From NCBI RefSeq assembly GCF_056712565.1, contig NZ_CM160072.1: a stretch of 64,000 nt of DNA, one strand, 5' to 3'. Numbering within the stretch: position 1 is the first letter of the stretch; every line of letters starts with the position of its first letter. Below, piece by piece: positions 46,501 to 52,500 of the stretch. The position numbers are program-made.

Positions 46501-49500
46501 GAAGCTATCAAACGTGCAGAAGCGGCTCCGGCGGCGACTGGCGGCGGTATCCCAGGCATGCTGCCGTGGCCGAAGGTGGACTTCAGCAAGTTTGGTGAAA
46601 TCGAAGAAGTGGAACTGGGCCGTATCCAGAAAATCTCTGGTGCGAACCTGAGCCGTAACTGGGTGATGATCCCGCATGTTACCCACTTCGACAAAACCGA
46701 TATCACCGAGCTGGAAGCGTTCCGTAAACAGCAGAACGAAGAAGCGGCGAAACGTAAGCTGGATGTGAAGATAACCCCAGTTGTCTTCATCATGAAAGCC
46801 GTTGCTGCAGCTCTTGAGCAGATGCCTCGCTTCAACAGTTCGTTGTCGGAAGACGGTCAGCGTCTGACCCTGAAGAAATACATCAACATCGGTGTGGCGG
46901 TGGATACCCCGAACGGTCTGGTTGTTCCGGTATTCAAAGACGTCAACAAGAAAGGCATCATCGAGCTGTCTCGCGAGCTGATGACTATTTCTAAGAAAGC
47001 GCGTGACGGTAAGCTGACTGCGGGCGAAATGCAGGGCGGTTGCTTCACCATCTCCAGCATCGGCGGCCTGGGGACTACCCACTTCGCGCCGATTGTGAAC
47101 GCGCCGGAAGTGGCTATCCTCGGCGTTTCCAAGTCCGCGATGGAGCCGGTGTGGAATGGTAAAGAGTTCGTGCCGCGTCTGATGCTGCCGATTTCTCTCT
47201 CCTTCGACCACCGCGTGATCGACGGTGCTGATGGTGCCCGTTTCATTACCATCATTAACAACACGCTGTCTGACATTCGCCGTCTGGTGATGTAAGTAAA
47301 AGAGCCGGCCCAACGGCCGGCTTTTTTCTGGTAATCTCATGAATGTATTGAGGTTATTAGCGAATAGACAAATCGGTTGCCGTTTGTTGTTTAAAAATTG
47401 TTAACAATTTTGTAAGATACCGACGGATAGAACGACCCGGTGGATAATGGGCGTCATAAAAAAACGTCAGACCCGCCGGAGATAAATATATAGAGGTCAT
47501 GATGAGTACTGAAATCAAAACTCAGGTCGTGGTACTTGGGGCAGGCCCCGCAGGTTACTCCGCTGCCTTCCGTTGCGCTGATTTAGGTCTGGAAACCGTA
47601 ATCGTAGAACGCTACAACACCCTTGGCGGTGTTTGCCTGAACGTCGGCTGTATCCCTTCTAAAGCACTGCTGCACGTAGCAAAAGTTATCGAAGAAGCCA
47701 AAGCGCTGGCTGAACACGGTATCGTCTTTGGCGAACCGAAAACCGATATCGACAAGATTCGTACCTGGAAAGAGAAAGTGATCAATCAGCTGACCGGTGG
47801 TCTGGCTGGTATGGCGAAAGGCCGCAAAGTCAAAGTGGTCAACGGTCTGGGTAAATTTACCGGGGCTAACACCCTGGAAGTTGAAGGTGAGAACGGTAAA
47901 ACCGTGATCAACTTCGACAACGCGATCATTGCAGCGGGTTCTCGCCCGATTCAACTGCCGTTTATTCCGCATGAAGATCCGCGTATCTGGGACTCCACTG
48001 ACGCGCTGGAACTGAAAGAAGTACCAGAACGCCTGCTGGTAATGGGTGGCGGTATCATCGGTCTGGAAATGGGCACCGTATACCACGCGCTGGGTTCACA
48101 GATTGACGTGGTTGAAATGTTCGACCAGGTCATCCCGGCAGCTGATAAAGACATCGTTAAAGTCTTTACCAAGCGTATCAGCAAGAAATTCAACCTGATG
48201 CTGGAAACCAAAGTTACCGCCGTTGAAGCGAAAGAAGACGGCATTTATGTGACGATGGAAGGCAAAAAAGCACCCGCTGAACCGCAGCGTTACGACGCCG
48301 TGCTGGTAGCGATTGGTCGTGTGCCGAACGGTAAAAACCTCGACGCAGGCAAAGCTGGCGTGGAAGTTGACGACCGTGGTTTCATCCGCGTTGACAAACA
48401 GCTGCGTACCAACGTACCGCACATCTTTGCTATCGGTGATATCGTCGGTCAGCCAATGCTGGCACACAAAGGTGTTCACGAAGGTCACGTTGCCGCTGAA
48501 GTTATCGCCGGTAAAAAACATTACTTCGATCCGAAAGTTATCCCGTCCATCGCCTATACCGAACCAGAAGTTGCATGGGTAGGTCTGACTGAGAAAGAAG
48601 CGAAAGAGAAAGGCATCAGCTACGAAACCGCCACCTTCCCGTGGGCTGCTTCTGGTCGTGCTATCGCTTCCGACTGCGCAGACGGTATGACCAAGCTGAT
48701 TTTCGACAAAGAATCTCACCGTGTGATCGGTGGTGCAATTGTCGGTACTAACGGCGGTGAGCTGCTGGGTGAAATCGGCCTGGCAATCGAAATGGGTTGT
48801 GACGCTGAAGACATCGCACTGACCATCCATGCGCACCCGACTCTGCACGAGTCTGTGGGCCTGGCGGCAGAAGTGTTCGAAGGTAGCATTACCGACCTGC
48901 CGAACCCGAAAGCGAAGAAGAAGTAATTTTTCGTTTGCCGGAACATCCTGCAAATTAAGAAGCGGCTATTCTGGCCGCTTCAGATTGTTGATAAAGTGCT
49001 CGTGGTTGATGCCGGATGCGGCGTAAACGCCTTATCCGACCTACAAAATCATGCAAATTCAATATATTGCATGGCTTGTGTAGGCCCGATAAGCTTGCGC
49101 ATCGGGCGATTCGATGTTTGTCATCAGTCTTAAGCGGCTAACAACGCCGCTTTTTTACGCCTGCAATTTACCTTTCCAGTCTCCTTGCTCCACGCTCAGA
49201 CAACCGTTCGCGTACCGCTGACCGTTGCTCATTATTCAATCGGGCAGTATGGTTACTGTCGTTTAGACGCTGCGGGCGGCTCTCCTGAACTTTCTCTCGA
49301 AAAACCTGACGCTGCTCAGGCGAGGCAGACTGGATACGCTGACGTGCTGCATCTCTTTGCTGTTGATTCTGCGGGTTAGTCTGCATTTTCTCGCGAACCG
49401 CCTGGCGCTGCTCAGGCGACGCGGACTGAATACGCTGACGTGCCGCTTCTCTTCTCTGCTGATTCTGCGGGTTAGCCTGAATTTTCTCGCGGACTGCCTG

Positions 49501-52500
49501 GCGCTGCTCAGGAGAAGCCGACTGATAACGCTGACGAGCGGCGTCCTTTTGTTGCTGGGTCAGTGGCTGGCGACGGCTGAAGTCGCGGAAGTCGTCATAG
49601 CTCCCATAGTGTTCAGCTTCATTAAACCGCTGTGCCGCTGCCTGACGTTGGGTATCTCGCGTAATGACGGGGGCGGCGTGTGTTCGTTGCTGAAACTGAC
49701 TTGCTGCCGCATGACGCTGGCTGTCGCGTGTTGGAGCAGGTAACTGCGTGGCGCTCATTCCGCCGTTGACATCGGTTTGATGAAACCGCTTTGCCATATC
49801 CTGATCATGATAGGTCACACCATTACGGTAGTTTGGATTGTGCCGCCATGCCATATTCTTATCAGTAAGATGCTCACCGGTGATACGGTTGAAATTGTTG
49901 ACGTCGATATTGATGTTGTCGCCGTTGTGTTGCCAGTCATTACCGTCACGATGACCGCCATCGTGGTGATGATAATCATCATCGTCATGATGATGATGGT
50001 CATGATCGTCGTCGTCCCAGTCGATGCTGCTGAATAGTGCGTATGTGGTAGCAACGCCCATGCTATAGCCGAATCCGCGCACAAAGCTGTCAACAAACGG
50101 TTCTCCGGCTGGCGGCGGCAGATAAACTGGCGGATAAGCGGTATTGGCCCAACTGCCGTAAACCACGTTTGGGTTGTAGTTCGGAATATAAACCACATCC
50201 GGATTGGCTGGCTCAATGGTTATTACGGTCGGTGCAGGTTCTGCGACGACGGGGCTGGACGTAGAAACGGTATTTGATTGTGTGGCAGGGGCGTTGGCGG
50301 GCTGATTTACCGGTACGACTTTTTTCGTTGTCGCGATGATCTTTTGTTCAGTTGATGACTTCAGCGAGCCGGTTTGTTGCGCCAGTTGCCGCAATCGCTG
50401 TACCGAGTCCATCACGTCCTGCGGCTGCGCCAGAAAAGCATCGCCCAGGTTTTGCACCCATTGCGGGTTTTCGCCCATCAATGCCATCAACTGTGGAAAG
50501 GCCACCAGTGATTTGACGCTGGCGTCCCAGGGCTGGTCAGATACAGCCTGAATAGCAGCATCGCCTTGTTTAAGTGGATTATCGTGCGACCATTGCACTG
50601 CTTGAGCAACGTTTGCCGGATAGGTTGATGCCATTAACACTTGTGAAAGCAGAGAGTCGGGGTATAGCGCGACAGGTGCAACCCATTGATCTATTTGAGC
50701 AGTGCTGAATGCGGATTTGACGACGGCAGGCGTTACGGGAGGCGCGGAAACCGTTGCAGGAAGCGTAACTGCGGAGATGTCAGGCGCAGTCTGTTGTGTC
50801 GATTGCGCTTCCACAGGCGCTTCCACTGTGCGGCTTTTTATATATAGCCCGGCAGAGGCGGCACAAAGCCCGGCACTGCAAATTAGCGCCAGCACATGGG
50901 GTTTAAACGGCAAAGTCATTTTCATAATTCGGATCTCAAGGAAATCGCAATGGTCGGCGAACTGCCACCCGCAGGTGCTGTGAATCCGAGTATAAAGAGG
51001 CCGTAGTTTAAATTTTGACTAATCTTGGGATTCGTTGAGAAAGGTGATTATCACCATGCGAATTAACGAAGTTTTTACGGAGGGAAACATTCTCTAGACT
51101 ATCCTTAACGATTCAGCCACTTTTTTATGTTGCTTTTTTGTAAACAGATTAACACATCGTCAAAATCCTGCTATTCTGCCCGTTGCGGTACTGGGCATTT
51201 ACCCTACAAACTGCTGTCTCACAGGAGCGTGAAGAGAATCGCCTGCCGCACTATGACAATGAGAGCGAGGAGAACCGTCGTGCTAGAAGAATACCGTAAG
51301 CACGTAGCTGAGCGTGCCGCTGAGGGGATTGCGCCCAAACCCCTGGATGCAAACCAAATGGCCGCACTTGTAGAGCTGCTGAAAAAACCGCCCGCGGGCG
51401 AAGAAGAATTCCTGTTAGATCTGTTAACCAACCGTGTTCCCCCTGGCGTCGATGAAGCCGCCTATGTCAAAGCAGGCTTCCTGGCTGCTGTCGCCAAAGG
51501 CGAAGCTAAATCCCCGCTGCTGACTCCGGAAAAAGCCATTGAACTGCTGGGCACTATGCAGGGTGGTTACAACATTCATCCGCTGATCGACGCGCTGGAT
51601 GATGCCAAACTGGCACCGATCGCTGCCAAAGCACTTTCTCACACGCTGCTGATGTTCGATAACTTCTATGACGTAGAAGAGAAAGCCAAAGCAGGCAACG
51701 AATATGCGAAGCAGGTAATGCAGTCCTGGGCGGATGCCGAATGGTTCCTGAATCGCCCGGCGCTGGCTGAAAAACTGACCGTTACCGTCTTCAAAGTCAC
51801 TGGCGAAACCAACACCGATGACCTCTCTCCGGCACCAGATGCGTGGTCACGCCCGGATATCCCACTGCACGCGCTGGCGATGCTGAAAAACGCCCGTGAA
51901 GGTATTGAGCCAGATCAGCCTGGTGTTGTTGGCCCGATCAAACAGATTGAAGCTCTGCAACAGAAAGGTTTCCCGCTGGCGTACGTCGGTGACGTTGTGG
52001 GTACGGGTTCATCGCGTAAATCCGCCACGAACTCCGTTCTGTGGTTTATGGGCGATGATATTCCACATGTGCCGAACAAACGCGGCGGTGGTTTGTGCCT
52101 CGGCGGTAAAATTGCACCAATCTTTTTTAACACGATGGAAGACGCGGGTGCACTGCCAATCGAAGTCGACGTCTCTAACCTGAACATGGGCGACGTAATT
52201 GACGTTTACCCGTACAAAGGTGAAGTGCGTAACCACGAAACCGGCGAACTGCTGGCAACCTTCGAACTGAAAACCGACGTGCTGATTGATGAAGTGCGTG
52301 CTGGCGGCCGTATTCCGCTGATTATCGGGCGTGGCCTGACCACCAAAGCGCGTGAAGCACTTGGCCTGCCGCACAGCGATGTGTTCCGTCAGGCGAAAGA
52401 TGTCGCTGAGAGCGACCGTGGCTTCTCGCTGGCGCAGAAAATGGTGGGCCGAGCCTGTGGCGTGAAAGGCATTCGTCCGGGCGCGTACTGTGAACCGAAA

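What the first reader, a model, noticed from the sequence alone, without database searches (positions are those of the whole stretch)
49168..50925. yacH carries about three tandem 33-aa Gln/Arg-rich repeats and a His/Asp-rich tract
Near-perfect ~99-bp tandem DNA repeats (around 49305..49565) encode repeated QRIQSASPEQRQAVREK...NPQNQQ units. Further upstream in the gene, DDDHDHHHHDDDDYHHHDGGH is encoded by a low-complexity tract (around 49950..50020). Such repeats are prone to slipped-strand copy-number variation, and the His/Asp tract suggests metal binding. The function of this protein is not established.
Basis: seen in the sequence. Interest (0 to 1): 0.4.

Follow-up and report, generated by a model that had tools for sequence, protein, structure and literature searches.

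The report
Length-variable repeats in E. coli yacH
The uncharacterised E. coli envelope-protein gene yacH has two in-frame repeat regions (three 32-amino-acid Gln/Arg-rich units and a His/Asp tract) whose lengths differ between strains; this is real and tidy, but an ordinary kind of gene polymorphism, and the protein's function is still unknown.

Summary
The ORF 49168..50925 (-) is yacH of the E. coli type strain ATCC 11775. It is 585 aa, matches Pfam DUF3300, and lies between lpdA and acnB.

There are three tandem units, but they are 32 aa / 96 bp, not 33 / 99. They are 67-82% identical in DNA, not near-perfect. The His/Asp tract is as described.

The predicted length variation exists. E. coli alleles carry 2-5 units: about 57% of 5,416 genomes have 4 or more, and this window has a minority 3-unit form (A-A-C). 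At least four independent in-frame gain or loss events are visible. The His/Asp tract also varies, from 15 to 38 aa, including a 24-bp unit present 1-3 times.

The repeats are under purifying selection (dN/dS 0.06) and are predicted to be helical. They are the Escherichia-specific version of a basic, Gln/Arg-rich C-terminal tail found across the DUF3300 family. The His/Asp tract is a disordered, lineage-specific expansion of a turn that is normally 4 residues long.

Escherichia has also lost the DUF2950 partner gene that follows yacH in all 23 other species sampled.

Metal binding and any envelope-tethering role are inferences, not shown. Interest is modest.

The parts
49168..50925 (-). yacH coding sequence (585 aa plus stop), DUF3300 family
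   Evidence: ORF. 100% identical to the annotated yacH of ATCC 11775. Pfam PF11737 over aa 75-333, E 3.5e-77, model positions 2-227 of 227.
50836..50925 (-). N-terminal export signal or membrane anchor (aa 1-30: MKMTLPFKPHVLALICSAGLCAASAGLYIK)
   Evidence: Lys-containing N-region, 17-residue hydrophobic core, and an A-S-A motif read directly from the sequence. AF2 predicts a helix at 9-30. 86 of 100 family members have an N-terminal hydrophobic segment. Whether it is cleaved was not tested. No lipobox.
50704..50835 (-). Pro/Ala/Thr/Val-rich disordered linker (aa 31-74)
   Evidence: pLDDT 47-76 and no secondary structure. dN/dS 0.72 against K-12.
49927..50703 (-). DUF3300 domain (aa 75-333): helical bundle 75-184 plus a Pro-rich beta region
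   Evidence: Pfam match. pLDDT 95-98 over 75-200. Length is invariant in 120 E. coli cluster representatives.
49951..50016 (-). His/Asp tract DDDDHDHHHHDDDDYHHHDGGH (aa 304-325), encoded by GAY/CAY triplets
   Evidence: pLDDT below 50. Length is 15-25 aa in cluster representatives, 30 aa in strain C25 and 38 aa in UPEC_U013.
49987..50010 (-). 24-bp unit GACGATCATGACCATCATCATCAT (DDHDHHHH, aa 306-313), followed by a 6-bp repeat of its own start (GACGAT)
   Evidence: Present once here, twice in C25 and three times in UPEC_U013, with identical DNA.
49594..49731 (-). Older degenerate pair of 23-aa segments (TRDSQRHAAASQF... and TRDTQRQAAAQRF..., aa 399-444)
   Evidence: Both copies are conserved in other Enterobacteriaceae as xRDxQRQAA. 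Predicted helices at 400-415 and 423-437.
49453..49548 (-). Repeat unit 1 (aa 460-491), type A: KDAARQRYQSASPEQRQAVREKIQANPQNQQR
49357..49452 (-). Repeat unit 2 (aa 492-523), type A: REAARQRIQSASPEQRQAVREKMQTNPQNQQQ
49261..49356 (-). Repeat unit 3 (aa 524-555), terminal type C: RDAARQRIQSASPEQRQVFREKVQESRPQRLN
   Evidence: The type B unit found between A and C in K-12 is missing here.
49171..49260 (-). C-terminal end (aa 556-585), containing a half-unit relic NNEQRSAVRERL
   Evidence: The xEQRxAxRE motif and the basic end are conserved across Enterobacteriaceae.

Best explanation
yacH encodes an exported envelope protein of the DUF3300 family.

The three 32-aa units are the Escherichia-specific form of a feature found across the family: a long, positively charged, Gln/Arg-rich and often repetitive C-terminal tail. 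Each unit is predicted to form a 16-residue helix, a break at SASP, a 13-residue helix and a break at NP. The array changes length by occasional in-frame loss or gain of whole 96-bp units, through unequal recombination or slippage between neighbouring units. This strain's A-A-C array derives from an A-A-B-C array like K-12's by loss of one period. Selection keeps the frame, the sequence and the charge.

The His/Asp tract is a separate, disordered, lineage-specific expansion of a tight turn inside the DUF3300 domain. It is built from GAY/CAY triplets and a 24-bp unit that slip in frame.

Shown here: gene identity, repeat anatomy, polymorphism, purifying selection, family-wide tail composition, and loss of the DUF2950 partner in Escherichia.

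Inferred, not shown: that the basic helical tail works as an electrostatic tether or spacer for a polyanionic envelope component (LPS, anionic phospholipid or peptidoglycan), with unit number setting its reach and charge; and that the His/Asp loop binds divalent metal ions weakly.
For: Identity and export.

Anatomy.

Polymorphism. The alleles are A-A-B-C (K-12, O157, E. whittamii, a cryptic clade), A-A-A-B-C with two identical neighbouring units, A-B-C, A-A-C (this window) and A-C. 3,101 of 5,416 genomes have 4 or more units. All length variation in 120 cluster representatives falls in the tract or the tail. The 76-aa N-terminus and the 224-aa core are fixed. Every indel seen is a multiple of 3.

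Selection: dN/dS is 0.064 in the repeats and 0.127 for the whole gene against K-12.

Structure: six helices over aa 457-548 at pLDDT 80-90, and the tract below 50.

Family generality. In 99 diverse relatives the last 150 aa are almost always Arg-rich, with net charge about +10 to +40 and frequent short tandem repeats. Other Enterobacteriaceae have 18-aa or 19-aa repeats at the same position, with conserved Q/R content and net charge +11 to +26.

Tract as insertion: the loop from W303 to N338 has a median length of 4 aa in the family and is 34 aa here.

Envelope link from the literature. yacH is CpxR-regulated, is repressed by protamine and cecropin A, and a yacH deletion survives protamine better (PMC9600279). 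It is down about 16-fold in a rob mutant under butanol (PMC7537768). It is induced by a cathelicidin peptide in UTI89 (PMC6737244).

Against: The gene is dispensable. There is an IS1 insertion in E. coli E69. An 8-bp frameshift inside the His/Asp tract makes it a pseudogene in S. Typhimurium UK-1, 14028s, D23580 and SL1344 (PMC3391293, PMC10048834).

Several unit numbers coexist at high frequency, which fits near-neutral length change.

dS in the repeat region may be inflated by comparing non-orthologous units, so the dN/dS there is approximate.

The helices have only weak hydrophobic faces, and AF2 confidence in repeats can be over-optimistic.
Confidence: 0.6

Rival explanations
1. The repeats and the His/Asp tract are functionally neutral low-complexity filler, acting as a disordered spacer. 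Length changes are neutral mutational noise in a gene that Escherichia is slowly losing after its DUF2950 partner was deleted.
For: Several length alleles coexist at high frequency. The gene is knocked out by IS1 in E69 and by a frameshift in several S. Typhimurium strains. The yacH deletion mutants described grew, and showed a gain in protamine survival and in recombinant protein yield. Escherichia lacks both the partner gene and a conserved tail motif.
Against: dN/dS is 0.064 in the repeats and 0.13 overall. Every indel seen in E. coli is in frame. A match to the gene is found in 5,425 of 5,426 genomes, and it covers at least 80% of the gene in 5,414. Tail composition and charge are conserved over the family although the sequence is not. 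The helices are predicted with pLDDT 80-90.
Confidence: 0.25
2. The repeats form a contingency (hypermutable) locus that switches or varies an exposed protein rapidly, for antigenic or phase variation.
For: Tandem repeats sit inside an exported protein and copy number differs between strains. The GAY/CAY tract has produced an out-of-frame 8-bp deletion in Salmonella.
Against: The units are 96 bp, and the tract indels are 6, 24, 39 and 48 bp, so no frame switching occurs in E. coli. Neighbouring units share at most 17 bp of exact match here. Alleles are stable across large lineages: 1,324 genomes are at least 99% identical to the K-12 array. Nothing shows surface exposure.
Confidence: 0.04
3. 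YacH is mainly a periplasmic metal-binding or buffering protein, and the His/Asp tract is its active site.
For: 19 of 22 residues are His or Asp, in a disordered loop of an exported protein. All 28 Enterobacteriaceae orthologues sampled (every locus except the Bordetella MAG L043) keep a D/H-rich tract at this position. His-rich loops recur independently in some distant members.
Against: The loop is 4 residues long in the typical family member, and only 14 of 100 members have 3 or more His there. Tract length varies more than two-fold within E. coli (15-38 aa). The yacH papers read here report CpxR, Rob and cationic-peptide effects; metal regulation was not specifically searched for.
Confidence: 0.15
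4. The three-unit count is an assembly artefact (a collapsed repeat).
For: None, apart from the general risk for tandem repeats.
Against: The gene is 100% identical to the finished chromosome of the same strain (H1). The same A-A-C array occurs in independent complete genomes (C25, FHI_NMBU03, UPEC_U013). The units differ at 17-32 of 96 positions and the array is only 288 bp.
Confidence: 0.01

Closest known systems
The DUF3300 (PF11737) / DUF2950 (PF11453) two-gene module of Proteobacteria, noted as 'universally co-localized', signal-peptide-bearing and uncharacterised by Seshadri et al. 2015 (PMC4653623)
   Same: YacH matches the full DUF3300 model. It has the N-terminal hydrophobic signal and the basic Arg-rich C-tail typical of the family. 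Enterobacterial orthologues sit next to acnB in the same synteny, with DUF2950 directly downstream.
   Different: All six Escherichia loci lack DUF2950. No DUF2950 homologue was found in 5,426 E. coli genomes by blastn. Escherichia YacH also lacks the conserved tail motif NA[LF]SGNDSRSPSW.AQ.QRG, and has a 32-aa repeat where its relatives have 18- or 19-aa repeats.
In-frame intragenic tandem repeats (VNTRs) in bacterial envelope or surface proteins, for example the alpha C / Rib proteins of Streptococcus agalactiae (from general knowledge, not tested here)
   Same: Head-to-tail units whose length is a multiple of three. Copy number differs between strains while the frame is kept.
   Different: The yacH units are diverged (67-82% DNA identity) and few (2-5), so change is slow. 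There is no evidence of surface exposure or immune selection.
His/Asp/Glu-rich disordered loop of the periplasmic zinc-binding protein ZnuA, and His-rich tails of Ni/Zn chaperones such as SlyD and HypB (from general knowledge, not tested here)
   Same: A flexible His/Asp-rich segment of variable length inserted into a folded, exported protein.
   Different: YacH has no sequence or fold relation to ZnuA-type proteins. No metal binding or metal regulation is known for it.
Low-complexity periplasm-spanning segments of TolA (domain II) and TonB (from general knowledge)
   Same: An N-terminal hydrophobic helix, a Pro/Ala-rich linker, and long charged helical or extended low-complexity segments in an envelope protein.
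   Different: No homology. In YacH the charged repeats are C-terminal to a globular domain. Neither anchoring nor spanning has been shown.

Membership tests
DUF3300 (Pfam PF11737) | Significant full-length match to the family HMM | tested here: met
   E 3.5e-77, model positions 2-227 of 227, aa 75-333. phmmer finds 9,517 relatives at E up to 0.001.
DUF3300 (Pfam PF11737) | N-terminal export signal | tested here: met
   A hydrophobic segment at aa 9-30 with an A-S-A motif (sequence). 86 of 100 aligned members have one. No dedicated signal-peptide predictor was available, and cleavage was not tested.
DUF3300 (Pfam PF11737) | Basic, Arg-rich, often repetitive C-terminal tail | tested here: met
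   In one search the last 150 aa are Arg-rich and net positive in nearly all of 99 full-length relatives. Escherichia tails after the WxHN motif carry net +11 to +19.
DUF3300-DUF2950 operon | A DUF2950 gene immediately downstream of the DUF3300 gene | tested here: not met
   Present in 23 of 23 non-Escherichia genome loci and 5 of 7 metagenome loci. Absent in 6 of 6 Escherichia loci, in the window, and in the K-12, O157 and other loci, where the order is acnB-yacH-lpdA. blastn of a Salmonella DUF2950 gene finds no homologue in E. coli genomes.
Intragenic in-frame VNTR | Head-to-tail units whose length is a multiple of 3 | tested here: met
   96-bp period, 2.6 copies by TRF. Three full 32-aa units.
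Intragenic in-frame VNTR | Copy number differs between strains of the species | tested here: met
   2, 3, 4 or 5 units. 57% of genomes have 4 or more.
Contingency / phase-variable simple-sequence locus | Short-unit repeat whose slippage shifts the frame or promoter spacing reversibly and at high rate | tested here: not met
   All E. coli length changes are multiples of 3. Exact matches between units are at most 17 bp here. Alleles are stable within lineages. Mutation rate was not measured.
Periplasmic His-rich metal-binding loop (ZnuA-like) | His/Asp-rich disordered loop in an exported protein | tested here: met
   19 H/D in 22 residues. pLDDT below 50.
Periplasmic His-rich metal-binding loop (ZnuA-like) | Demonstrated metal binding, or homology to a metal-binding fold | tested here: not met
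   The homology part is not met: no sequence or fold relation to any solved protein. Metal binding itself cannot be tested with these tools.
Known helical repeat families (TPR, Sel1, HEAT and similar) | Pfam or structural match of the 32-aa units | tested here: not met
   Pfam gives only DUF1104 at E 3.7. The tail has no PDB sequence match at E up to 10. No fold match.

The most novel reading that the evidence does not exclude
Escherichia YacH is a remodelled, partner-less DUF3300 protein. After the ancestor of the genus lost the DUF2950 gene, the conserved tail motif (SGNDSRSPSW..., possibly the partner's docking site) decayed. The tail was then rebuilt from a new 32-aa helical unit. The copy number of that unit (2-5) now tunes the reach or charge of a periplasmic tether, which affects susceptibility to cationic antimicrobial peptides.
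Probability: 0.1. Interest if true: 0.5.

Novelty: new member of a known kind. Interest (0 to 1): 0.28.

Why it matters
yacH is one of the still-uncharacterised E. coli genes (it sits in the y-ome list of PMC12133099) and belongs to a very large exported family with no characterised member.

This analysis gives anyone who studies it a clean map. It shows which parts are fixed (signal, DUF3300 core, mid region) and which are plastic (the His/Asp loop and the 32-aa array). It shows that natural 2-, 3-, 4- and 5-unit alleles and 22-, 30- and 38-aa tract alleles already exist for comparison. It also shows that E. coli is an atypical model for the family, because it lacks the DUF2950 partner.

Practically, the two regions could serve as in-frame length markers for strain typing. 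They also warn against treating yacH length differences as assembly errors.

It does not reveal a new kind of system.

Tried and rejected
1. NCBIfam scan of YacH: no family.

2. PDB sequence searches with the family profile and with the tail alone: no hits, even at E 1 and E 10.

4. Rfam scan of the region: only REP-type elements in the lpdA-yacH spacer, nothing inside the gene.

5. Promoter and terminator scan: at or below shuffle expectation. The terminator-like hits inside the repeats lie on the opposite strand and are not credible.

6. Lipoprotein idea: neither Cys is preceded by a lipobox (sequence).

7. DUF2950 elsewhere in E. coli: only 65-75 bp chance-like blastn matches, mostly on plasmids, and none in the window by tblastn.

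9. Literature. There is no paper on DUF3300 or DUF2950 function. The yacH mentions are all from omics or screen lists, and several gave no functional information.

10. Assembly collapse and contingency-locus readings: rejected (see rival explanations).

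
Full report
**What is there.** The window matches the E. coli type strain DSM 30083 = ATCC 11775 at 100% over the feature (H1). The ORF at 49168..50925 on the minus strand (585 aa) is annotated yacH, 'DUF3300 domain-containing protein'. It lies between lpdA (47499..48926, +) and acnB (+; real start near 51280). Pfam gives a full-length DUF3300 match (aa 75-333, E 3.5e-77). NCBIfam has no model for it. A megablast match to the gene is found in 5,425 of 5,426 complete E. coli genomes.

**Checking the observation.** The repeats are real but were mis-measured. TRF reports period 96, 2.6 copies and 84% matches over 49284..49536. The protein self-comparison peaks sharply at offset 32, with 28 of 32 residues identical. 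Anchored on the AARQR motif, the units are aa 460-491 (49453..49548), 492-523 (49357..49452) and 524-555 (49261..49356). DNA identity is 79/96, 69/96 and 64/96, and protein identity is 26/32, 20/32 and 19/32. So there are three 32-aa units, moderately diverged, not three near-perfect 33-aa units. The His/Asp tract is DDDDHDHHHHDDDDYHHHDGGH (aa 304-325, 49951..50016), encoded almost entirely by GAY and CAY codons. Both features far exceed what composition alone gives in 300 shuffles: 19 against a maximum of 10 for H/D in 22 residues, and 28 against a maximum of 12 for repeat identity.

**Does length vary between strains?** Yes, in both regions and only there. An alignment of seven alleles shows 3 units in this strain, C25 and C9, and 4 units in K-12, O157:H7 and JNE181771 (617 aa). 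The tract is 2 aa longer in C9 and 8 aa longer in C25. I queried all genomes with K-12's 4-unit array plus 30-bp flanks, which a 3-unit allele can cover by at most 78%. This gave 3,101 of 5,416 genomes with at least 80% coverage, so about 57% have 4 or more units. In 120 E. coli cluster representatives, the N-terminal 76 aa and the 224-aa DUF3300 core never change length. All variation is in the tract (15-25 aa) and the tail: 131 aa for 3 units, 163 for 4, 195 for 5, a few partial in-frame indels, and a 45-aa duplication.

**Unit genealogy.** The second halves of the units define three types: A (...AVREKMQTNPQNQQR), B (...VFKEKVQQRPLNQQQ) and the terminal C (...VFREKVQESRPQRLN). The observed arrays are listed below.
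- A-A-B-C: K-12, O157, JNE181771, E. whittamii and cryptic clade E1V33.
- A-A-A-B-C: P0014, with units 2 and 3 identical.
- A-B-C: O177:H21, ECA64, MOD1-EC7003, and the C9 / FDAARGOS_1264 type (587 aa; the sampled ST131 genome H6 has the same 1764-bp span).
- A-A-C: this window, C25, FHI_NMBU03 and UPEC_U013.
- A-C: GmF052, 557 aa.

The two different 3-unit forms, plus the 2- and 5-unit forms, require at least four independent whole-unit events. A-A-B-C is probably ancestral, since it is shared with sister species. In the systematic 60-genome sample, about 55% had 4 or more units, about 35% had the A-B-C alignment pattern, about 8% had the A-A-C pattern of this window, and one genome was A-C. 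These class sizes are extrapolated from one fetched genome per class for A-A-C and A-C and three for A-B-C.

**The His/Asp tract has its own tandem unit.** GACGATCATGACCATCATCATCAT (DDHDHHHH) is followed by a repeat of its first six bases. It is present once here, twice in C25 and three times in UPEC_U013, giving a 38-aa tract. In a 60-genome systematic sample, 49 had this window's length, six had +6 bp, one +24, one +48, two -39, and one was partial and unresolved. All changes are multiples of three. In Salmonella Typhimurium, the literature records an 8-bp deletion in the same tract that frameshifts yacH in UK-1, 14028s, D23580 and SL1344 relative to LT2 (PMC3391293, PMC10048834). The tract is therefore a mutational hotspot. 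In E. coli only in-frame products were seen.

**How fast?** In this allele the longest in-register exact match between neighbouring units is 17 bp. In K-12 it is 30 bp, and in JNE181771 it is 66 bp. Whole lineages share one allele: 1,324 genomes are at least 99% identical to the K-12 array. This fits occasional unequal recombination or slippage over evolutionary time, not contingency-locus hypermutation. Assembly collapse is excluded (see the observation check).

**Is the repeat region functional protein?** Against K-12, dN/dS is 0.127 for the gene and 0.064 for the repeat region. The latter is approximate, because some compared units may not be orthologous. The AF2 model was built on 100 diverse sequences (mean pLDDT 74.7). 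It has these parts:
- An N-terminal helix at 9-30.
- A disordered Pro/Ala/Thr linker at 31-74.
- A very confident helical DUF3300 core (75-184, pLDDT above 95) followed by a beta-rich part.
- A disordered His/Asp tract (pLDDT below 50).
- Six helices over 457-548 at pLDDT 80-90.

Each 32-aa unit therefore forms a 16-residue helix, an SASP break, a 13-residue helix and an NP break.

**Family context.** DUF3300 is very large: 9,517 cluster representatives at 50% identity match at E up to 0.001. In 99 full-length relatives the last 150 residues are almost always Arg-rich with net charge about +10 to +40, and many have short tandem repeats of various periods. 86 of 100 aligned members have an N-terminal hydrophobic segment. 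In 29 genomes of other species, the 32-aa array is confined to Escherichia. Other Enterobacteriaceae have 18-aa NPTAQQQQRRxxAKSH units (2-3 copies) or 19-aa STPEQRQARRENVQQRV units at the same position. Their Gln content (12-20%), Arg content (8-18%) and net charge (+11 to +26) are conserved. So the tail's composition is conserved while its repeats turn over. The loop holding the His/Asp tract (W303 to N338) has a median length of 4 residues in the family and is 34 here. Only 14 of 100 members have 3 or more His there. The tract is a lineage-specific insertion, kept D/H-rich in all 28 Enterobacteriaceae orthologues sampled.

**Function.** Nothing direct is known. There is no PDB sequence match and no fold match. 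The literature places yacH in envelope-stress biology:
- It is CpxR-regulated, is repressed by protamine and cecropin A, and a yacH deletion survives protamine better (PMC9600279).
- It is strongly down in a rob mutant under butanol (PMC7537768).
- It is modestly induced by a cathelicidin-derived peptide in UTI89 (PMC6737244).
- A yacH deletion increases recombinant protein yield (PMC7376861).

The gene is dispensable, as shown by the IS1 insertion in E69 and the Salmonella pseudogenes.

My best reading is an exported envelope protein whose basic helical tail acts as an electrostatic tether or spacer for a polyanionic envelope component, with a weak metal-binding loop added in enterobacteria. 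That functional part is inference from composition and context. I give it about 0.3. The structural and evolutionary description I put at about 0.85 or higher.

**Verdict.** This is a real, well-defined, in-frame length polymorphism in a known but uncharacterised gene. Its measurements and the 'near-perfect' claim do not, and metal binding remains untested. The kind of feature (an intragenic VNTR in an envelope protein) is ordinary. The Escherichia-specific loss of the DUF2950 partner and remodelling of the tail is the most useful by-product. Interest 0.28.

Noticed in passing
window 48927..49167 (lpdA-yacH spacer); hits at 49045..49087 (+) and 49004..49041 (-): The spacer holds REP-type palindromes. 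Rfam ES036/CssrF scores 38.2 bits, just above its gathering score of 37.6, and there is a sub-threshold naRNA4 match. The spacer is 241 bp here and in C25, FHI_NMBU03, UPEC_U013 and GmF052, but 70 bp in K-12, O157 and C9. This is a REP insertion/deletion polymorphism that, in the strains fetched, goes with yacH alleles lacking the B unit (A-A-C, and A-C in GmF052).
   Followed up: partly
window 51127..51280: The mechanical ORF list starts acnB at ATG 51127. The annotated K-12 start ([12 protein letters not shown]...) aligns to about 51280, so the first ~51 codons of the listed ORF are probably not translated.
   Followed up: partly
window 49168..50925 compared with L001 (K-12): yacH is unusually diverged for an E. 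coli core gene: 91.6% DNA identity and dS 0.29, against lpdA at 98.4% and dS 0.07. The divergence is mosaic: dS is 0.09 in the linker and mid region, 0.39 in the DUF3300 core, and about 0.58 in the repeats and tail. This suggests old allelic lineages and recombination.
   Followed up: partly
L006 (E. coli AST85, NZ_AP043644.1), 3001..4860: A very divergent yacH allele (619 aa, with different linker and tail) sits between normal acnB and lpdA. Only 98 nt of it match by megablast. It is possibly an allele imported from another Escherichia lineage.
   Followed up: no
L020 (E. coli E69, CP089930.1), 3599..4366: An IS1 element (768 bp, typical terminal inverted repeats, 9-bp target duplication GGTTTGCCT) interrupts yacH after about codon 370. 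The gene is therefore dispensable in that strain.
   Followed up: yes
P0032 / H41 (E. coli O68:H12 strain 97.3): A 662-aa allele carries a 45-aa in-frame duplication (AAPVITRDTQRQ...LTQQQKDA) just upstream of the 32-aa array.
   Followed up: partly
L040 (CACSKA010000010.1, labelled Chryseobacterium sp. 18061) and L043 (MAG labelled Bordetella parapertussis): L040 has enterobacterial acnB-yacH-DUF2950 synteny and a 48%-identical YacH. The record is probably mislabelled or contaminated.
   Followed up: no
L015-L019 compared with L021-L042, C-terminal tails: Escherichia YacH lacks the motif NA[LF]SGNDSRSPSW.AQ.QRG that is conserved in all the other Enterobacteriaceae tails. E. albertii has a degenerate remnant. 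The loss coincides with loss of the downstream DUF2950 gene.
   Followed up: partly
[not shown]
   Followed up: partly
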